This document shows, piece after piece, positions 288 to 56,730 of a stretch of DNA of 64,000 nt. Under the pieces are notes generated by a model that was not told the DNA's origin, made no database searches, and saw only the letters and a program-made list of their open reading frames with translations. Position 1 is the stretch's first letter. Every line of letters begins with the position of its first letter. The stretch spans positions 3,979 through 67,978 of IMG/VR virus record IMGVR_UViG_3300025401_000028, one strand, 5' to 3'. Position numbers and translations under genes: made by a program. This DNA is from a virus.

Positions 288-295
288 TATTTATA
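288..295 (-). promoter_or_regulatory. T4-type late promoter TATAAATA upstream of gp18
   Basis: Exact gp55 consensus, about 40 nt upstream of the gp18 ATG. Confidence 0.8.
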
Positions 296-4670: not shown

Positions 4671-4678
4671 TATTTATA
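4671..4678 (-). promoter_or_regulatory. T4-type late promoter TATAAATA upstream of gp13
   Basis: Exact consensus in the intergenic gap, followed by a GAGG RBS. Confidence 0.8.
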
Positions 4679-7522: not shown

Positions 7523-7530
7523 TATTTATA
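7523..7530 (-). promoter_or_regulatory. T4-type late promoter TATAAATA
   Basis: Exact consensus upstream of the fibre gene. Confidence 0.75.
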
Positions 7531-25494: not shown

Positions 25495-25923
25495 TTATCT
25501 TGCTCTCGATACAGTTAAATTGATATTTACTGGTGTTGTGCTATTTATAATAGAAAATATAATATCTACGATAAATGAATTTTTGTCGGGTGAAGGATAT
25601 ACAACAACATTTAATAAATTTGCTCTTGGTTCGAAATTTTGAATTGTTGTTTTTATATCATAAGTTAAATTTTGTGCGGTAATTTCATCAGCAAATTCAA
25701 AAAGAGAACCGTTTACGTTACCACCAACATTCGGTTGAAATAATCTTTCGTTATAATTTGTTAATACGAGATTAGTTATCGACTGACGAACTGAGTTCTC
25801 GTTAGTTACTTTTGCTAACTGATTATTAAATGGTACTCTATCAAAATTGTCTAAAAAATCCGAGAACAGAATCTGTTTCTTCTGTAATTGAGTAAATTTA
25901 TCTGCTCTCGTAGTCCCAACCAT
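25495..25923 (-). CDS. gp25: Baseplate wedge subunit
   Basis: SVRQSITNLVLT...ERLFQP..G...LFE...NFEPR motif. Confidence 0.93.
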   Translation of the reverse strand: MVGTTRADKFTQLQKKQILFSDFLDNFDRVPFNNQLAKVTNENSVRQSITNLVLTNYNERLFQPNVGGNVNGSLFEFADEITAQNLTYDIKTTIQNFEPRANLLNVVVYPSPDKNSFIVDIIFSIINSTTPVNINLTVSRAR

Positions 25924-45089: not shown

Positions 45090-45114
45090 TATAAATACTT
45101 TATTATTATTTAGT
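45090..45114. promoter_or_regulatory. Face-to-face late promoters for the divergent gp4 (+, TATAAATA 45090-45097) and gp48 (-, ACTAAATA 45107-45114) operons
   Basis: Both motifs lie in the short gap between the divergent operons. Confidence 0.75.
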
Positions 45115-51935: not shown

Positions 51936-52517
51936 TCAGTTCTCGTAATAATCAAGAACTGTTTTAGACATCTTTGCTTTATCATAGTTAATAAATGGCT
52001 TGTATTTCTTTATCTTATTCGAAAGCTGTTCCCACAATGGATCGTACTCCATATTTTTATCCCAATAACTTAAACAATTGACAAGATCAGAAAGAACAAT
52101 AAGAGTTTCGAGGCATATAGTATTACTAAGATACAACTTAATAATATGAGGATGCGAGCCAGTGGTGGCAATAAAGTTACTATTAAAATCAGTAAGAAGA
52201 TGACCCAAATCATTTTTTACAACATAAGTTAAAGACTGAATACGTTTAGACCATTCCTGATAAACTTTATTTGCTTCTTCGCTATAAGCAATATCTCTAA
52301 TCCATGCTTTTTCGTTTTTGATTAGATTGGCAATAAGAAAGTTTTTAGGATCTGGATGTTTAGCTATTTTTTGGAAAAATAATTTATCTGAACGAGTATC
52401 AAACTTATCATATGATAGTTTGCTTTTACCATTGTATTTAAAATAATCATATGATGGTTTAGTGAAATGATTTTTTAGTGCAAGATATTCTTTATAGCAG
52501 TCAAATGCTGACATCAT
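51936..52517 (-). CDS. gp59: Helicase loader
   Basis: Y..YLALK.HF....YDYFKYNGK, F..R.DK.FF.K and ICLETL motifs; upstream of gp32. Confidence 0.93.
   Translation of the reverse strand: MMSAFDCYKEYLALKNHFTKPSYDYFKYNGKSKLSYDKFDTRSDKLFFQKIAKHPDPKNFLIANLIKNEKAWIRDIAYSEEANKVYQEWSKRIQSLTYVVKNDLGHLLTDFNSNFIATTGSHPHIIKLYLSNTICLETLIVLSDLVNCLSYWDKNMEYDPLWEQLSNKIKKYKPFINYDKAKMSKTVLDYYEN
52427..52517. repeat. 91-bp direct repeat, copy 1 (5' end of gene 59)
   Basis: Identical to 53219-53309. Confidence 0.95.
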
Positions 52518-53205
52518 TGTTGTTTCCGATACTGAGTTTTAAATTTCCAGAAACAGAAATTCTTTCTTCATCTGAAGTAAAGAAAGGATGAACTAAATGG
52601 TTTAATTTAGAAGGGAATAAACATATAATACCTTCAAATGATTTATCGATAGGTAAGTTTTCACTTCTTATTCTACCTAAAATATCCGTAAAAACAAAAT
52701 TAAATGTAGAGGTAGAATTATCTTTTTTCTTTATATTAGGAAATACTCCAAACTCATCTTGAAGGTCATAAGGAATTTTTACCCAAATAACAAAAGATAA
52801 CACGCCACTATGATCGTGAATGGGATTAAACTCATATTTGTTTTGAAAATTAACCCATATATTACTTAATACTAAAGGAAGATCACCAGTGAGAATATCC
52901 GTTAAATCTGTAATATCATTTGCTTGCAAATAATTTTTTGCCAGCATCATAATGTAATTATTAATTGATGGAATTACTGGTTCTAAACTATATTCTTTTT
53001 TTATATGACCTGCTAATTTGCCGTTGAACTTTTCAACATTTTTGTCATCTTCTTTAATTTTATTAATTTGATTAATAATAATATCCATCAATTTTTGAGG
53101 AACTTTATCATACATAACTGTTGGATTTCCAAAAGAAAACATATAGCTAGCTTCTGGATTTTTATGAAGATCTTTAATAAAATCGTACCTTTTTGGATCT
53201 TGCAC
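52501..53205 (-). CDS. 2OG-Fe(II) oxygenase superfamily protein
   Basis: WVNFQ..EFNP.HDH...LSFVIWV and LFPS.L.H.V.PF...ERISVSGN (HxH, H and RxS ligands); GGAG RBS. Confidence 0.88.
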   Translation of the reverse strand: MQDPKRYDFIKDLHKNPEASYMFSFGNPTVMYDKVPQKLMDIIINQINKIKEDDKNVEKFNGKLAGHIKKEYSLEPVIPSINNYIMMLAKNYLQANDITDLTDILTGDLPLVLSNIWVNFQNKYEFNPIHDHSGVLSFVIWVKIPYDLQDEFGVFPNIKKKDNSTSTFNFVFTDILGRIRSENLPIDKSFEGIICLFPSKLNHLVHPFFTSDEERISVSGNLKLSIGNNNDVSI

Positions 53206-53309
53206 GTTATTATACTCCTACCATTGTATTTAAAATAATCATATGATGGTTTAGTGAAATGATTTTTTAGTGCAAGATATTCTTTATAGCAGTCAAATGC
53301 TGACATCAT
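53088..53309 (-). pseudogene. Truncated duplicate of the gene 59 5' end (30 identical codons, then runs out of frame into the oxygenase)
   Basis: MMSAFDCYKEYLALKNHFTKPSYDYFKYNG is identical to the gp59 N-terminus. Confidence 0.8.
53219..53309. repeat. 91-bp direct repeat, copy 2
   Basis: Identical to 52427-52517. Confidence 0.95.
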
Positions 53310-53536
53310 CTTACATACACGTCTAGTGTCTCAAGGAAAAATTTCTTCAACTTCTTATCAAACGATTCTTTGTTTAGAGTCATATAATCAGTGTAAAGAT
53401 CGGCAATACTCGAATTATTACCAGTATTACTTAATACTTGATAATTACGACTCTCAATTTCTTTGATCAATTCATCATCATCGAAGTCTTCAAGATCTGG
53501 ATCATCCACCCAAACATCTGTATTTACATATGGCAT
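53306..53536 (-). CDS. Hypothetical acidic protein
   Basis: GAGGAG RBS before MPYVNTDVW; DLEDFDDDELIKEIESR. Confidence 0.7.
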   Translation of the reverse strand: MPYVNTDVWVDDPDLEDFDDDELIKEIESRNYQVLSNTGNNSSIADLYTDYMTLNKESFDKKLKKFFLETLDVYVR

Positions 53537-53546
53537 ATCAGACTCC

Positions 53547-53771
53547 TCAAAATGGTAGCTTCGCGCCACCCTTTAAATAATTTAAATTCTCTGCATCAGC
53601 TTGTAGCTTAGATTTAATTACAGGATCTTTTTTAATGATGTTAGCAATAACTTCAATATCGAGATTATTTTTTTCACACCATGTCGTAATAGCATCAATA
53701 TAATCTACATCGTTATTATGTATCTTTTCAATTTCAGAATTAAACGTATTAGAATCAAAAACGAATTTCAT
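53547..53771 (-). CDS. gp33: Late transcription co-activator
   Basis: F..EIEK.....DYIDAI..WCE.N.LDIE....I...IK.KL..DAE.LNYL....KLPF; synteny upstream of gene 59. Confidence 0.88.
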   Translation of the reverse strand: MKFVFDSNTFNSEIEKIHNNDVDYIDAITTWCEKNNLDIEVIANIIKKDPVIKSKLQADAENLNYLKGGAKLPF

Positions 53772-53794
53772 AATATATCCTATGTTTGAGGAAA

Positions 53795-53826
53795 TGGTGG
53801 ACCGAGCAGGACTCGAACCTGCAACC
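53795..53826 (-). pseudogene. Isolated tRNA 3' half (T-arm, acceptor strand and CCA)
   Basis: GGTTGCAGGTTCGAGTCCTGCTCGGTCCACCA, with no D or anticodon arm of its own. Confidence 0.7.
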
Positions 53827-53838
53827 AATCCGTGTATT

Positions 53839-53913
53839 TGGTGGACCGAGTAGGATTCGAACCTACGATCGCACTGTTATGAGCAGTGAGCCTTACCGCT
53901 TGGCTATCAGTCC
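53839..53913 (-). tRNA. tRNA with CAT anticodon (probably Ile2/lysidine; elongator Met not excluded)
   Basis: GGACTGA/TCGGTCC acceptor stem, CACTG-CTCATAA-CAGTG anticodon arm, GTAGG-TTCGAAT-CCTAC T arm, encoded CCA. Confidence 0.9.
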
Positions 53914-53919
53914 GAAAAT

Positions 53920-53995
53920 TGGCGATCACCAAGGGACTCGAACCCCTAACCTAGAGAGTAGAAATCTCTTGCTCTTCCAGTTGAGCTAGGTGACC
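53920..53995 (-). tRNA. tRNA-Arg(TCT)
   Basis: GGTCACC/GGTGATC acceptor stem, AGAGA-TTTCTAC-TCTCT anticodon arm, T loop TTCGAGT, encoded CCA. Confidence 0.92.
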
Positions 53996-54008
53996 AATTT
54001 GAATTGAA

Positions 54009-54316
54009 GTGAGCCCGTTCTGTTTCGAGGTGGAACCCATACCCAAGAGATTAAGCCGCTAGGCGCATCTCAAGAAGTGAATTATCGTTTGCAGATAATT
54101 TATTTATGCTATTGTCTCGATCTTGTCTTTATTACACCAGTCGATCCTATTTCGCCCCCATCAAAGATACACCGTCCTTACGACGCCCCAAATTAATTGG
54201 CTCTAGCAGTTAAGAACGACTCAGCGGTCTTATCCAGTGTATCCGTGGTGGAGGCGGTGGGTACTGCCCCCACGTCCTCAGTGTCTATTCCACATGATGT
54301 CATCAACATCAGCATA
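54009..54316 (-). ncRNA. ssrA: Circularly permuted two-piece tmRNA (alphaproteobacterial type), tag ANDNSLLEMRLAA
   Basis: The acceptor piece ends GGGGGCAGTACCCACCGCCTCCACCA (CCA at 54246). An 86-nt intervening segment follows. The coding piece starts GGGGGCGAAATAGGATCGAC (54159) with a G3:U70 pair. Tag ORF at 54092-54051. Outer ends approximate. Confidence 0.93.
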
Positions 54317-54319
54317 TTC

Positions 54320-54350
54320 TATTTATACCGTATATTAGATCATTAGTCAA
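54320..54350 (-). promoter_or_regulatory. Composite promoter for the tmRNA/tRNA cluster (TTGACT-17-TATAAA overlapping late TATAAATA)
   Basis: -35 at 54345-54350; TATAAATA at 54320-54327. Confidence 0.75.
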
Positions 54351-54574
54351 GTCTTTTCTTTCCAGTTATGACCAATGTAATATTCCATCATGATCTCTAT
54401 ACCTTTAATCCAATGATCAGTATCATTTAGATCTTCGAGTTCATATTGGGCTAGTGGTTCTTTGTTTAGTTTTTCAGTAAGCTGTTGTTTTTGTTGCAAC
54501 AATCCACGATAATCCTGAAGTAAGGTTTGCTGAAAAATTTTATCAATCGTTTCAACATCAATATCAATTAGCAT
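54347..54574 (-). CDS. Hypothetical protein
   Basis: ORF overlap-coupled with its neighbours. Confidence 0.7.
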   Translation of the reverse strand: MLIDIDVETIDKIFQQTLLQDYRGLLQQKQQLTEKLNKEPLAQYELEDLNDTDHWIKGIEIMMEYYIGHNWKEKT

Positions 54575-55046
54575 TTTTAAACTCCAGTTTATCTTTGTTA
54601 ACTATGAATTCTACAATATTGTAATCGTCAAACTGATCGCCACCATATCGAAAATAATCTCTGCCACCATCAACGAAAGCACCATTACCAGCATCGCGAT
54701 AATCATGACGATAACGAGAATAGGTAACAGTACCTTCAGTCTCTAAACCTTTGAACGCTACGCCATCAACAGCCGATAAACCATTAGCGATCATAAACTG
54801 ATTGGTGTCATCAATATAAAGAGCGAAATAGTTTGAACCTTCTGGATGTGCAGTTTCCGTATAGAAGATAGCTGCTGGAAAGTTAGCCCAACCACCATTA
54901 CGATCCTTAGCACAAGTTTCTAGTACATAGGTAGCCTTGTAATGTTTTTCGATATTTTTGATTTTTTCCTCAGTAAGAAAAGAACATTTAGTATCGACAG
55001 TCAAACTATTTCTATCAGTAACTAACTTACGCTTGTTCATCATCAT
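54564..55046 (-). CDS. Hypothetical phage protein
   Basis: YSRYRHDY...FVDGGRDY motif seen in phage hypotheticals; coupled ORF. Confidence 0.7.
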   Translation of the reverse strand: MMMNKRKLVTDRNSLTVDTKCSFLTEEKIKNIEKHYKATYVLETCAKDRNGGWANFPAAIFYTETAHPEGSNYFALYIDDTNQFMIANGLSAVDGVAFKGLETEGTVTYSRYRHDYRDAGNGAFVDGGRDYFRYGGDQFDDYNIVEFIVNKDKLEFKNAN

Positions 55047-55401
55047 TCTCCAATTCTTTTACCAACTCAATAGCCAAATTTTTCCACCAGTTGCGTTGGA
55101 TCTCAATCTTTTCGTAACTGAGCTCCAATTGCTCATTTGCTATCATTGTAGTAAAGATTTCAAATTTTTGCAACCGATCATTTTCTTTTTCAATATTTTC
55201 AGCGTATAAACCAGCAAATTTGTTTCGAGTTTCGAGCACAAGTATTTCACGTTCTTTATCAGCTATCGTCTGCTTCATCTCCATAATCCCACCTGGACCT
55301 GTTTCCAGTTGACTGATACGTCTATTAGCAAGATGCAGTCTTCTCTCATTAATAGGAAGATATTCTAACCAAGAATCGATTGTTTCTTTTTCAGTTTGCA
55401 T
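55027..55401 (-). CDS. Hypothetical coiled-coil protein
   Basis: Overlap-coupled ORF; AAGGTG RBS. Confidence 0.65.
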   Translation of the reverse strand: MQTEKETIDSWLEYLPINERRLHLANRRISQLETGPGGIMEMKQTIADKEREILVLETRNKFAGLYAENIEKENDRLQKFEIFTTMIANEQLELSYEKIEIQRNWWKNLAIELVKELENDDEQA

Positions 55402-55618
55402 CTTTCACCTTTGTAAATGTTTCAATACGACGATCGATATATTCATCTAAATGCATCTTAAATTTTTCTTTGGCTAGTGGTAAAATATTAGCACGGATAT
55501 TATCCGCCTGTCTCCACTCACCTTCATCATTATGGTGCCACTCATCATCTAGAGTGTCGATAAGTTTCTCTAGGGAGTTAACGAGATCTTCGATAATGTC
55601 TGAGCTTTTCCTAGTCAT
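55391..55618 (-). CDS. Hypothetical protein
   Basis: ATGA-coupled ORF. Confidence 0.65.
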   Translation of the reverse strand: MTRKSSDIIEDLVNSLEKLIDTLDDEWHHNDEGEWRQADNIRANILPLAKEKFKMHLDEYIDRRIETFTKVKDAN

Positions 55619-56730
55619 TTAATCACCTTTAGAATAATAGTGTTTTCATTTATACGACCATTAGCTTCACCAGTCATCTCTTCAATCATCTTACGTAGAA
55701 CGATTTTACCACCAGTCAACACAGCCTGTAATTTCTCAGATGTTTTACGACCAATCTTTATGGATTTAGAATTATCGCTATTATAAGACACCAAACTAGT
55801 ACCACGGACGTTAATACCATTCCTACCATCAGCAACAAAAACGCTGAGAAGATTGTATTTGGTGTTAAAAGTCCAGACTGTTTGGGCTCCGAGGATTGAT
55901 TCTGGATTGATGGAGGTAAGTTTGTGTTCATTGCTTTCTTTCTGATATTTGAAATTCTTCAAGATCTTTTCTACAGAAGGTGCTTTGGTCTTACGTGGAG
56001 CTCGTGCTTTCTTAGTGTTGCCATTATAACGATGAGCATCCTCTAGCATCTTACCAAGGAGCTCTATACGGCTCTTAAGACCTTTCTTACCGTAGTGCTT
56101 ATAACCTTCTAGAAGCTGCTCGTCTTTACCTTCAAAAGCATGAACCAACTCCATCAGAACAGGAGTATAATATTCTAGGATCTTAGCAGCGTACATAGCA
56201 GGAATCTCTTTTTTCTTTAACCAATCATATAAAGAAAACTCTTCATCCTTATCCAGCATCTCTTCGATATCACCGATAATATCATATCCTTTTTCTTTGA
56301 TACGGTCTTGAATCGATGGCTTCTCGGCGACAGCCGATTTTTTCTCTACCTCCACATGAGTAAATGATTCTGTCAAAAACTCGTTTATCTGAGAGTCCCA
56401 GCCGAAGGACTGAGCGGCTAGAGGAGCGATAGAGGACATCCTAGAAAGCCAGCAAGCGGTGAGCGGTAGCCATGTATCCGAAACCTTCTTGAGCCTCTGC
56501 AAGTCCTCTAAACGATTGTGTGCAGCAAGGTAAGAAGCCATATACTCGCGAGCCTCCTCCTTGCTGCACATGGCATTGTACCAGTTGATCGATCGGATCG
56601 TGGACTTTCCGATCTGCGTAGCCATAGGTTCATCACCAAGATACTTCACATTCACAAGGTACTGTTCGCTACGAGTTTTACGAACAGGCTTTGGTTTGCT
56701 ACGCTTAATCAACTTTGGTCGCTGTGCCAT
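55615..56730 (-). CDS. Conserved T4-like hypothetical protein
   Basis: DEQL.EGY, SINP..I.GA..VW.FNTKY and NGRINENTIILKV motifs typical of environmental T4-like phages. Confidence 0.8.
   Translation of the reverse strand: MAQRPKLIKRSKPKPVRKTRSEQYLVNVKYLGDEPMATQIGKSTIRSINWYNAMCSKEEAREYMASYLAAHNRLEDLQRLKKVSDTWLPLTACWLSRMSSIAPLAAQSFGWDSQINEFLTESFTHVEVEKKSAVAEKPSIQDRIKEKGYDIIGDIEEMLDKDEEFSLYDWLKKKEIPAMYAAKILEYYTPVLMELVHAFEGKDEQLLEGYKHYGKKGLKSRIELLGKMLEDAHRYNGNTKKARAPRKTKAPSVEKILKNFKYQKESNEHKLTSINPESILGAQTVWTFNTKYNLLSVFVADGRNGINVRGTSLVSYNSDNSKSIKIGRKTSEKLQAVLTGGKIVLRKMIEEMTGEANGRINENTIILKVIK

What the first reader, a model, noticed from the sequence alone, without database searches (positions are those of the whole stretch)
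54009..54350. Phage-encoded circularly permuted (two-piece) tmRNA with its own tag peptide
Seen on the minus strand in this order: promoter; acceptor piece ending ...GACGTGGGGGCAGTACCCACCGCCTCCACCA; 86-nt intervening segment closed by a GATACAC/GTGTATC stem; coding piece starting GGGGGCGAAATAGGATCGAC; tag ORF GCAAACGATAAT...GCGGCTTAA = ANDNSLLEMRLAA*. The 7-bp acceptor stem has G3:U70, and inter-piece pairing is visible (TATGCT/AGCATA, TGGTGT/ACACTG). Established: permuted ssrA with ANDN...AA tags is characteristic of Alphaproteobacteria, where it also affects cell-cycle timing in Caulobacter. The phage tmRNAs I know well are one-piece. Inference: the phage brings its own ribosome-rescue and proteolysis-tag RNA, possibly to replace host tmRNA cleaved by defence nucleases or to retarget tagged proteins. 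It also points to an alphaproteobacterial host. No smpB is present in this window.
Basis: partly seen in the sequence, partly recalled or inferred. Interest (0 to 1): 0.88.

Follow-up and report, generated by a model that had tools for sequence, protein, structure and literature searches.

The report
Phage-encoded compact two-piece tmRNA
A freshwater T4-like phage carries its own intact-looking split ribosome-rescue RNA (two-piece tmRNA); related marine phages are already known to have one, but this copy is unusually compact.

Summary
Window 54008-54354 (-) is a circularly permuted, alpha-type tmRNA gene: Rfam RF01849 112.9 bits, E 5e-30; RF04321 93.2 bits. The host record is a 94.9-kb fragment of a roughly 165-kb T4-like phage. 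The gene lies just upstream of gp33, gp59 and gp32, the same slot as ssrA in Methylophilales phage Melnitz. It is found in 26 of 50 related viral records searched, including 2 of 2 near-complete genomes. Stems covary, G3:U70 is invariant and all tags are intact, so it is a selected phage gene, not a chimera or att remnant. No SmpB is encoded, so host SmpB is needed.

The novelty premise fails. Two-piece phage tmRNAs were published in 2022 (PMC9004378: Melnitz, plus 53 unique two-piece forms). Melnitz infects a non-alphaproteobacterium, so the host inference is unsafe. The defence and retargeting ideas are untested.

Three points are new here.
- The clade's tmRNA has no room for PK1, and I found this compact form in viral contigs but not convincingly in bacterial genomes.
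- The only invariant promoter element is TATAAATA, the T4-type late box.
- tRNA-Arg(TCT) follows the tmRNA in every relative.

Verdict: a new member of a known kind, of moderate interest.

The parts
54320..54350 (-). Promoter: -35 TTGACT (54350-54345), 17-nt spacer, TATAAATA (54327-54320), which fits both a sigma-70 -10 (TATAAA) and the T4-type late box.
   Evidence: Sequence. ATAAATA is invariant or nearly so in 21 aligned clade sequences, while by my reading of the alignment TTGAC is present in only about 13. Five of the other six exact TATAAATA boxes in the window lie upstream of genes on the same strand. Melnitz ssrA has TTGACA-17-TATAAATA.
54246..54316 (-). Acceptor piece, about 70 nt (5' end inferred, not mapped). 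It holds the 5' strands of inter-piece helices P2d-P2a, the T-arm (54273-54257), the 3' acceptor strand (54256-54250), discriminator A (54249) and encoded CCA (54248-54246).
   Evidence: Rfam alignments. Covariation: T-arm 100% of cells paired, with 3 of 5 pairs changed on both sides.
54160..54245 (-). Intervening segment, 86 nt, presumably removed during maturation. Its closing stem is 54243-54237 with 54172-54166.
   Evidence: The closing stem is 100% paired in 21 sequences, with 5 of 6 counted pairs changed on both sides. Its interior is not conserved.
54008..54159 (-). Coding piece, about 152 nt (3' end inferred). It holds the 5' acceptor strand GGGGGCG (54159-54153), the 3' strands of P2a-P2d (54140-54105), the single-stranded upstream region with U(-5)A(-4), the tag frame and the 3' pseudoknot.
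54051..54092 (-). Tag reading frame: resume codon GCA at 54092-54090, 13 codons reading ANDNSLLEMRLAA, stop UAA at 54053-54051.
   Evidence: The A at -4 (54096) is invariant in 21 of 21 sequences and the U at -5 is at least 90% conserved.
54010..54044 (-). 3'-terminal H-type pseudoknot: S1 is 54044-54041 with 54031-54028; S2 is 54039-54033 with 54016-54010. The loop holds the conserved GAAACAGAA.
   Evidence: S1 94% paired, with 2 of 4 pairs changed on both sides. S2 77.5% and 95% paired in its two parts, with 5 of 7 pairs changed on both sides.
53920..53995 (-). tRNA-Arg(TCT), 12 nt downstream of the tmRNA; probably co-transcribed.
   Evidence: 62.4 bits. tRNA-Arg(tct) lies downstream on the same strand in 21 of 21 relatives' loci. 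No terminator-like site is found between it and the tmRNA.
53839..53913 (-). tRNA-Met(CAT).
   Evidence: 64.3 bits.
53547..53771 (-). gp33-like late-transcription coactivator, the first protein gene downstream (ATG at 53771).
   Evidence: PF16805, E 1.4e-17. Same order as in Melnitz: ssrA, gp33, gp59, gp32.

Best explanation
This is a genuine two-piece (circularly permuted, alpha-type) tmRNA gene kept by a lineage of roughly 165-kb T4-like freshwater phages. It most likely performs ordinary trans-translation in the infected cell using host factors.

Proposed course; only the sequence features are shown, and every step below is inferred:
1. Transcription starts about 6-7 nt after the TATAAATA box. 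That box matches the boxes upstream of this phage's virion genes and, with TTGACT at -35, also makes a sigma-70 promoter.
2. One precursor carries the acceptor piece, the 86-nt intervening segment, the coding piece, tRNA-Arg(TCT) and tRNA-Met.
3. Host RNase P cuts 5' of G1 (54159) and 5' of the tRNAs. The intervening segment, held as a stem next to both processing sites, is trimmed away, leaving the encoded CCA.
4. The two RNAs stay together through the 7-bp acceptor stem and a long inter-piece helix (P2a-d).
5. Host AlaRS charges the RNA via G3:U70. Host SmpB and EF-Tu deliver it to stalled ribosomes.
6. Translation resumes at GCA 54092, with the frame set by U(-5)A(-4), and adds (A)ANDNSLLEMRLAA. 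This marks the protein for host proteases and frees the ribosome.

The benefit would be ribosome-rescue capacity during late infection, delivered together with tRNAs. Unlike bacterial alpha tmRNAs, this one has no PK1: the inter-piece helix ends about 12 nt before the resume codon.
For: Identity: RF01849 112.9 bits and RF04321 93.2 bits.

Selection in phages:
- RF01849 exceeds its cut-off in 26 of the 50 gp32-related viral records searched (50 of the 80 loci kept). That includes 2 of 2 records at least 90% complete; most records without it are fragments under 10 kb.
- On 21 distinct sequences, 86.6% of cells pair, against 74.8% in shuffles (0 of 500 shuffles reach it) and 39-46% when partners are slid. 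27 of 53 pairs change on both sides. G3:U70 is present in 21 of 21.
- All 21 have an open tag frame ending in AA plus a stop; by my tally 19 of 21 are ANDN...LAA.
- A(-4) is invariant. Its counterpart A86 is the main frame determinant in E. coli (PMC2481249, passages read).

Phage context and synteny with Melnitz.

Host factors needed: SmpB is found in 0 of 1 (own record) and 0 of 5 (two complete relatives, one 85% complete, Melnitz, Phosso).

Late box: only 7 exact TATAAATA occur in the window, against 13.7 expected. Besides the tmRNA box, 5 lie upstream of genes on the same strand:
- 23-56 nt before the head-tail adaptor, an 838-aa tail-fibre-like protein and a gp6-like baseplate wedge;
- 29 nt before a small ORF that lies ahead of gp2;
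- directly behind the terminase gene.

tRNA-Arg(tct) lies downstream in 21 of 21 relatives.

No PK1:
- Only 46 nt separate GGAUCGAC from the resume codon.
- Infernal aligns the PK1 positions as a deletion.
- By my reading of the printed structures, per-sequence cofolds give the same nested inter-piece helices in 18 of 22 sequences.
Against: - No expression, processing, charging or tagging data exist for this RNA or for any two-piece phage tmRNA found in my searches.
- PK1 is normally important (recalled from the E. coli literature), so a PK1-less form might be impaired or do something else.
- Outer P2 helices pair in only 67-74% of cells in the MAFFT alignment.
- Cofold energies are only modestly better than shuffles, and not better in some relatives.
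- The late-promoter reading rests on motif identity and position only. Buchholz et al. call the Melnitz promoter early.
- A terminator-like hairpin lies inside the intervening segment at 54186-54169. Its T-run is poor and it is not conserved.
- The host is unknown, so compatibility with host SmpB is assumed.
Confidence: 0.8

Rival explanations
1. The RNA is made, but it acts mainly as a modulator rather than a rescuer. It could titrate host SmpB to block host trans-translation (as proposed for the tRNA-like-domain-only RNA of mycobacteriophage DS6A), or it could replace the host tag with a phage-chosen tag to change the fate of tagged proteins.
For: No phage SmpB is found, so the RNA must compete for host SmpB. 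PK1 is missing. The middle of the tag varies between relatives, and two relatives carry quite different tags: AKKAHNDNINYSAMKIAA and ATYASNDNVPYSAMKVAA. The DS6A precedent is described in PMC4131195 and PMC11915505 (passages read).
Against: A pure decoy needs no tag frame. Yet all 21 sequences keep an open frame with a stop, U(-5)A(-4) and a covarying 3' pseudoknot. The ends of the tag (ANDN, LAA) are those of ordinary alpha-type tags in bacteria and other viral contigs.
Confidence: 0.1
2. It is a counter-defence spare part: a phage copy that replaces host tmRNA (and tRNAs) destroyed by host anticodon-type or other RNA nucleases during infection.
For: It sits in one likely operon with tRNA-Arg(TCT) and tRNA-Met. 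That phage tRNAs can replace cleaved host tRNAs is recalled, not checked here.
Against: No nuclease that targets tmRNA is known to me, and my literature searches returned none. Nothing in the locus points to defence. The simpler supply argument explains the same facts.
Confidence: 0.06
3. It is not a phage gene at all: a host fragment joined by misassembly, a recently captured passenger, or the tmRNA-derived part of an attP site.
For: tmRNA genes are common integration sites, and fragments occur in prophages (PMC9004378 section 8). The record is a metagenome assembly.
Against: - The gene is complete (promoter, both pieces, tag), not a 3' fragment.
- It is in the same slot in 26 independently assembled related records, including a 167.8-kb genome with terminal repeats.
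- A 567-nt contig of another DNA run (X6) spans 53970-54536 with 0 differences, joining tRNA-Arg, the tmRNA and the upstream ORF.
- No tyrosine integrase (PF00589) is found: 0 of 1 (own record) and 0 of 3 (relatives).
- It scores 113 bits, against 158-313 bits for 144 of the 151 alphaproteobacterial genomes sampled, so it is no fresh host copy.
Confidence: 0.03

Closest known systems
SsrA of Methylophilales phage Melnitz and Melnitz-like or pelagimyophage contigs (Buchholz et al. 2022, PMC9004378; GenBank MZ577097)
   Same: A two-piece alpha-type tmRNA in a T4-like (Kyanoviridae) phage, in the same slot upstream of gp33, gp59 and gp32. Same promoter layout, TTGACA-17-TATAAATA. Same closing stem around a long intervening segment, a similar 3' pseudoknot and an ANDN...ALAA tag. 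No SmpB.
   Different: - gp32 is only 54% identical.
- Melnitz has 62 nt with a hairpin between P2 and the resume codon; this one has 46 nt.
- Melnitz has a glutamine riboswitch at its 3' end and no adjacent tRNA. Here there is no riboswitch hit, and tRNA-Arg and tRNA-Met follow directly.
- By run labels this phage is from fresh water; Melnitz is marine.
Alphaproteobacterial two-piece tmRNA (Rfam RF01849; Caulobacter, Keiler et al. 2000, cited in PMC9004378, not read)
   Same: Permuted gene order, tRNA-like domain, G3:U70, the GAAAUAGGAUCGAC motif, an ANDN...AA tag, and a 3' pseudoknot with the GGAAACAGAA loop.
   Different: - Bacterial copies score 158-313 bits in 144 of 151 genomes, against 113 here.
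- They carry PK1 (CGGCAUGGUACCGCCGUUAUCGG), with 62-107 nt before the resume codon in 10 of the 11 copies my script could parse, out of 20 fetched.
- Their intervening segments were 5-26 nt in 9 of those 11; here it is 86 nt.
- The model's 5' hairpin is absent here.
One-piece phage tmRNAs (mycobacteriophage Bxz1 group, Bacillus phage G; PMC4131195)
   Same: Phage-encoded tmRNA.
   Different: Standard, unpermuted gene form with other tag types. These were the only phage tmRNAs listed in 2014.
tRNA-like-domain-only RNA of mycobacteriophage DS6A
   Same: A phage-borne tmRNA relative that must use host SmpB.
   Different: It has no tag frame and is thought to inhibit host tmRNA. Here the tag frame and its context are conserved.
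Unannotated tmRNA of Sinorhizobium jumbo phage Phosso (PV764938)
   Same: An alpha-type permuted tmRNA in a phage: RF04321 113.3 bits and RF01849 108 bits. It shares 88-89% identity with the window over the 55-59 nt at the tag end and 3' pseudoknot.
   Different: It keeps PK1, has an intervening segment of roughly 400 nt (my count from the alignment print), and its tag reads ANDNVSTKVALAA by my reading of that alignment. The phage is an unrelated 469-kb jumbo phage.

Membership tests
Permuted (two-piece) tmRNA, alpha type (Rfam RF01849 / RF04321) | Covariance-model score above the curated gathering score over the full model | tested here: met
   RF01849 112.9 bits against 50; RF04321 93.2 bits against 47. 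Both models are matched end to end.
Permuted (two-piece) tmRNA, alpha type (Rfam RF01849 / RF04321) | Circular permutation: the 3' acceptor/T-arm piece with CCA lies upstream of the 5' acceptor strand and coding piece, separated by an intervening segment | tested here: met
   CCA at 54248-54246; 86-nt segment; GGGGGCG at 54159-54153.
Permuted (two-piece) tmRNA, alpha type (Rfam RF01849 / RF04321) | tRNA-like domain: 7-bp acceptor stem, T-arm and G3:U70 alanine identity pair | tested here: met
   Acceptor stem 98% paired, T-arm 100% paired with changes on both sides, G:U in 21 of 21 sequences.
Permuted (two-piece) tmRNA, alpha type (Rfam RF01849 / RF04321) | Tag reading frame with a GCA resume codon, conserved upstream U(-5)A(-4), a C-terminal hydrophobic ..AA, and a stop | tested here: met
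   ANDNSLLEMRLAA followed by a stop. A(-4) is invariant in 21 of 21. Intact tags in 21 of 21.
Permuted (two-piece) tmRNA, alpha type (Rfam RF01849 / RF04321) | PK1 between helix P2 and the resume codon (typical of bacterial members) | tested here: not met
   Only 46 nt separate GGAUCGAC from the resume codon, and most of it pairs with the acceptor piece. Infernal aligns the PK1 positions as a deletion. Bacterial copies have 62-107 nt with the PK1 consensus.
Permuted (two-piece) tmRNA, alpha type (Rfam RF01849 / RF04321) | Pseudoknot 3' of the tag | tested here: met
   S1 and S2 covary.
Permuted (two-piece) tmRNA, alpha type (Rfam RF01849 / RF04321) | SmpB partner encoded in the same genome | tested here: not met
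   PF01668 is found in 0 of 1 and 0 of 5 records. This is as expected for a phage copy that relies on host SmpB.
Permuted (two-piece) tmRNA, alpha type (Rfam RF01849 / RF04321) | Processing into two RNAs, alanylation, and tagging of stalled proteins | not testable with these tools
   No run on record as RNA was listed. Only contigs were available, and they cannot show RNA ends.
Melnitz-like phage ssrA locus (PMC9004378) | ssrA directly upstream of the gp33 coactivator, gp59 and gp32 in a T4-like phage | tested here: met
   Two tRNAs are interposed here.
Melnitz-like phage ssrA locus (PMC9004378) | Glutamine (glnA) riboswitch in the 3' part of ssrA | tested here: not met
   No riboswitch family at E up to 1 in 52500-56000. 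The paper itself says most contigs have one or the other, not both.
tRNA-like-domain-only decoy (DS6A type) | No tag reading frame | tested here: not met
   The tag frame is present and conserved.

The most novel reading that the evidence does not exclude
The compact two-piece tmRNA seen here, which has no PK1 and whose inter-piece helix ends about 12 nt before the resume codon, would be a virus-restricted lineage of tmRNA. It would be a core gene of a widespread clade of roughly 165-kb T4-like freshwater phages, transcribed from a T4-type late promoter as a tmRNA-tRNA operon. If it is active, it is a natural demonstration that PK1 is dispensable for trans-translation. It would also mean phages have streamlined and maintained their own version of the ribosome-rescue RNA over long periods, rather than repeatedly borrowing it from hosts.
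Probability: 0.45. Interest if true: 0.55.

Novelty: new member of a known kind. Interest (0 to 1): 0.4.

Why it matters
Phage-borne tmRNA shows that some large lytic phages invest in ribosome rescue as well as tRNAs. Here the gene is close to a core gene of a whole freshwater T4-like clade. That makes the clade a good system for asking what trans-translation contributes to infection.

Practical points:
- ARAGORN missed the window's copy and 7 of 21 relatives' copies that Rfam models find, so the ARAGORN-based census of phage tmRNAs in PMC9004378 is probably an undercount.
- Compact alpha-type tmRNAs on small contigs in non-alphaproteobacterial MAGs look like mis-binned phage DNA.
- The type of a phage's tmRNA should not be used on its own to predict the host.
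- If the PK1-less form is active, it would be a natural minimal tmRNA, useful for structure-function work.

Tried and rejected
ARAGORN on the window found no tmRNA. I rejected this as a negative because two covariance models and comparative evidence agree. ARAGORN does call tmRNA* in 14 of 21 relatives and in Melnitz.

The promoter scanner did not list the promoter because of its T-at-position-6 rule. I relied on conservation instead.

Single-sequence MFE folds of the precursor and of the two pieces did not reproduce the tRNA-like domain cleanly. I dropped them in favour of comparative analysis.

blastn of the locus against the phage collection found only short conserved stretches, so there is no close named relative.

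A glutamine riboswitch, as in Melnitz, was sought and not found.

Host inference from sequence was not pursued further. The host stays unknown.

Expression:
- The look-up of sequencing runs listed no RNA holder.
- Two lake-water runs labelled metatranscriptomic, from one study and marked by the tool as probably DNA, hold small shares.
- When laid, their contigs are 90-99% alike, so they come from relatives. They lie on the tmRNA and tRNA stretch (about 53754-54190 and 54238-54267).
- They do not lie on the flanking protein-coding parts laid. Contigs cannot show RNA ends or levels, so I draw nothing from this.

Other points:
- My first tag-finding script mis-called frames by taking upstream in-frame GC.AAY matches. 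I corrected this using ARAGORN's calls and a stricter rule. Three sequences there are still given with the upstream extension ANVID....
- In one search my parser handled only 11 of the 20 fetched bacterial copies. The other 9 are not counted.
- The sliding and shuffle controls share the usual caveat that the structure was derived from one of the aligned sequences.
- Supplementary tables of PMC9004378 (lists of phage tmRNAs) could not be seen. They may already include compact forms or relatives of this clade.
Full report
1. WHAT IS THERE

The whole window was scanned against Rfam. Window 54008-54354 on the minus strand matches alpha_tmRNA (RF01849) over the complete model: 112.9 bits against a gathering score of 50, E 5.4e-30. 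Window 54051-54308 matches the general tmRNA_permuted model (RF04321): 93.2 bits against 47.

- Promoter: TTGACT (54350-54345), 17 nt, TATAAATA (54327-54320).
- T-arm at 54273-54257.
- 3' acceptor strand CGCCUCC (54256-54250), discriminator A, encoded CCA (54248-54246).
- An intervening segment of exactly 86 nt (54245-54160), closed by GAUACAC/GUGUAUC.
- 5' acceptor strand GGGGGCG (54159-54153), giving a 7-bp stem with G3:U70.
- Inter-piece pairings.
- A tag frame from GCA 54092 to UAA 54051 that reads ANDNSLLEMRLAA.

ARAGORN as run here did not call the gene. It found only tRNA-Arg(TCT) 53920-53995 and tRNA-Met 53839-53913, which lie 12 nt downstream of the tmRNA.

2. WHERE IT SITS

The window belongs to a 94,894-base virus record that CheckV rates 57% complete. 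G+C is 32-43%.

The genes after the two tRNAs are:
- a gp33-type late-transcription coactivator (PF16805);
- a 2OG-Fe(II) oxygenase;
- the gp59 helicase loader;
- gp32.

Elsewhere in the window are the terminase large subunit, gp6-like baseplate wedge proteins, a head-tail adaptor and tail proteins. This is a T4-like myophage.

The best named relative by gp32 is Methylophilales phage Melnitz at 54% identity, with cyanophages next at 50-53%. In Melnitz the annotated SsrA lies in the same place, directly upstream of gp33, gp59 and gp32.

Run labels place the phage in fresh water. Excluding the five runs that may be the source of this DNA, eight runs in eight studies, all from 2017 and possibly one campaign, hold at least half of the sampled words. 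All are labelled freshwater metagenome. One of them, when laid, has a 567-nt contig covering 53970-54536 without a difference.

3. IS IT A REAL PHAGE GENE UNDER SELECTION?

A gp32 search of IMG/VR gave 310 relatives, of which 80 loci were kept. I searched the records behind 50 of them. RF01849 exceeded its cut-off in 26 of 50, including both records that are at least 90% complete (167.8 kb with terminal repeats, and 164.4 kb). Most of the negatives are fragments under 10 kb.

I aligned 21 distinct sequences. I then counted pairs for a structure taken from the Rfam consensus plus the intervening-segment stem and a 3' pseudoknot:
- 86.6% of cells pair, against 74.8% in shuffles (0 of 500 reach it) and 39-46% when partners are slid by 1-3 columns.
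- 27 of 53 pairs change on both sides.
- T-arm: 100% paired. Acceptor stem: 98% paired, with G3:U70 in 21 of 21.
- Closing stem of the intervening segment: 100% paired, with 5 of 6 pairs changed on both sides.
- Both pseudoknot stems covary.
- The outer inter-piece helices pair less well in this MAFFT alignment (67-74%). By my reading of the printed structures, per-sequence cofolds recover the same nested helices in 18 of 22 sequences. Three of the four failures came from my own truncation of the input.

All 21 sequences keep an open tag frame ending in AA plus a stop, and by my tally 19 are ANDN...LAA. The A four bases before the resume codon is invariant. Its E. coli counterpart A86 is the main determinant of frame choice (PMC2481249, passages read).

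No tyrosine integrase is found in the record or in three large relatives. A chimera, a passenger fragment and an att remnant are therefore all very unlikely.

4. HOW IT PROBABLY WORKS

No SmpB is encoded in this record. None is found in two complete relatives, one 85% complete relative, Melnitz or Phosso (0 of 5). The RNA must therefore use host SmpB, AlaRS, EF-Tu and RNase P.

The only promoter element that is invariant across the clade is ATAAATA within TATAAATA. By my reading of the alignment, the -35 TTGAC is present in about 13 of 21 sequences. TATAAATA is the T4 late-promoter consensus (recalled).

In this window the exact octamer is rarer than chance: 7 copies against 13.7 expected. The seven copies are placed as follows:
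- three lie 23-56 nt before the starts of the head-tail adaptor gene, an 838-aa tail-fibre-like gene and the gp6-like baseplate gene;
- one lies 29 nt before a small ORF ahead of gp2;
- one lies directly behind the terminase gene;
- one lies inside an ORF;
- one is the tmRNA box.

Melnitz ssrA has the same TTGACA-17-TATAAATA layout. I therefore infer late, or dual early and late, transcription. Buchholz et al. read the Melnitz promoter as early.

No terminator-like site separates the tmRNA from the two tRNAs. tRNA-Arg(tct) follows the tmRNA in 21 of 21 relatives' loci. By my count from the coordinates, it lies within 20 nt in 11 of them. A common precursor cut by RNase P is the simplest reading.

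The covarying stem that closes the 55-130-nt intervening segment sits next to both processing sites. It probably keeps the acceptor stem strands in register; this is inference.

5. WHAT IS KNOWN ALREADY

Buchholz et al. 2022 (PMC9004378; abstract, passages and section 8 read) report:
- a two-piece ssrA in Melnitz, related to SAR11-lineage tmRNAs although the host is OM43;
- permuted tmRNAs in 17 of 47 Melnitz-like contigs;
- by ARAGORN, 133 unique tmRNAs in 402 of 18,146 phage genomes, 53 of them two-piece and 50 of those from marine or aquatic phages.

The 2025 tmRNA database paper (PMC11915505, passages read) counts 79 unique bacteriophage sequences.

A permissive blastn (E up to 10) also touches phages of Mesorhizobium, Rhodobacter, Ruegeria, Phaeobacter, Erythrobacter and Sinorhizobium. 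In most of them the region is unannotated. In Phosso I confirmed an unannotated permuted tmRNA.

The kind is therefore known. The alpha type of the RNA does not prove an alphaproteobacterial host. I found no experimental study of any phage tmRNA's function among papers holding 'phage tmRNA', 'viral tmRNA' or similar phrases (4 papers), tmRNA+phage+two-piece (21 papers), or tmRNA+PK1+phage (14 papers).

6. WHAT MAY BE NEW: A COMPACT FORM WITHOUT PK1

Here only 46 nt lie between GGAUCGAC and the resume codon, and most of it pairs with the 5' part of the acceptor piece. Infernal aligns the PK1 positions of both models as deletions.

Pattern searches gave these results:
- Strict pattern (AAATAGGATCGAC, 35-55 nt, TGCAAACGAYAA): 0 stretches in one genome for each of 185,579 bacterial and archaeal species.
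- Looser pattern, genome collection: 33 stretches, of which only 3 look like tmRNA. All 3 are on contigs of 3.8-8.5 kb, two in Rhizomicrobium MAGs and one in a Verrucomicrobiales MAG. They score 74-88 bits; the three alphaproteobacterial genomes in that search whose chromosomal copy was found score 211-248 bits. One of the two Rhizomicrobium MAGs has both kinds of copy, and the other has only the compact one. I read these contigs as probably phage DNA in MAG bins.
- Sample of 401 Alphaproteobacteria: the same motifs with 59-87 nt between them occur in 79 genomes, all with the PK1 consensus. With 30-58 nt there is 1 hit, a chance non-tmRNA match in the genome I had used as the centre of the sample.

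RF01849 scores 158-313 bits in 144 of 151 sampled alphaproteobacterial genomes. The phage clade scores 67-131 bits.

I fetched 20 bacterial copies: the 14 lowest-scoring and 6 from small genomes. My parser handled 11 of them. Ten have 62-107 nt before the resume codon. The exception is a second, 72.8-bit copy in a genome that also has a normal one.

In an unselected set of 120 viral contigs sharing only the coding-piece start, the spacings fall into these groups:
- 27-28 nt: 9 contigs;
- 38-46 nt: 12 contigs;
- 60 nt or more: 63 contigs;
- no ANDx tag found by my rule: 36 contigs.

Caveats:
- The patterns fit only about a fifth of bacterial alpha tmRNAs.
- Spacing is a proxy for PK1.
- Supplementary lists of earlier surveys could not be read.

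7. VERDICT

The item is a new member of a published kind. It has a credible but unproven twist: a virus-restricted, PK1-less, late-expressed tmRNA-tRNA operon. That twist deserves a proper census and one heterologous activity test.

Noticed in passing
window 53795-53830 (-): Just after tRNA-Met lies a tRNA 3' fragment: a T-arm (GCAGG/CCUGC), the same 3' acceptor strand as tRNA-Met (UCGGUCC), then A and CCA. No matching 5' half is present. It looks like a partial duplication or a recombination scar directly upstream of gp33.
   Followed up: partly
L216:1885-2170 (relative with gp32 98% identical): In this near-identical relative a small ORF of about 70 aa is inserted between the tmRNA and tRNA-Arg. 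It is followed by a second copy of a tag end plus 3' pseudoknot from a different tmRNA allele. The insert is bounded by a repeat of the tRNA-Arg 5' start (weak RF01849 hit of 33.1 bits). The tmRNA/tRNA junction seems to be a recombination hot spot.
   Followed up: partly
L223 and L229: The tmRNA alleles are mosaic. L223 (gp32 97% identical) shares the window's acceptor piece but carries a different tag and 3' end (AKKAHNDNINYSAMKIAA). L213 shares the window's intervening segment almost exactly, while its flanks differ.
   Followed up: partly
L003:2366-3055 (Sinorhizobium phage Phosso PV764938, record about 349.6-350.2 kb): An unannotated permuted tmRNA (RF04321 113.3 bits) lies in a gap between annotated genes. 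Its intervening segment is unusually long, roughly 400 nt. ARAGORN did not call it.
   Followed up: partly
L247, L376, L379, L380 (Verrucomicrobiales MAG G054); L239, L256 (Rhizomicrobium MAGs): Low-scoring (74-88 bits) alpha-type tmRNAs sit on small contigs inside MAGs. One such MAG belongs to a phylum I would not expect to carry alpha-type tmRNA, and it has three hits. This probably reflects phage contigs binned into MAGs.
   Followed up: partly
L382 (G167:C5:288509-288849): A second alpha-type tmRNA copy (72.8 bits, 80-nt intervening segment, no PK1 consensus) lies on a 543-kb contig of a 3.9-Mb alphaproteobacterial genome that also has a normal 235.7-bit copy. It may be prophage-borne.
   Followed up: no
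L004-L123: A still more compact class of viral alpha-type tmRNAs has only 27-28 nt between GGAUCGAC and the resume codon (9 of 120 contigs; tags such as ANDNFAPSGYALAA).
   Followed up: no
window 288-295, 4671-4678, 7523-7530, 25542-25549, 45090-45097: Exact TATAAATA is under-represented in the window (7 copies against 13.7 expected). It sits mostly just upstream of virion genes, which fits T4-type late promoters in this phage.
   Followed up: partly
L209, L212, L214: Several relatives carry a 92-nt gene that ARAGORN calls tRNA-Ile(tat), next to tRNA-Arg. The length is odd for a tRNA and may reflect an intron or a long insert.
   Followed up: no
window 54169-54186 (-): A terminator-like hairpin lies inside the intervening segment, just before the coding piece. 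Its T-run is poor and it is not conserved in relatives.
   Followed up: no
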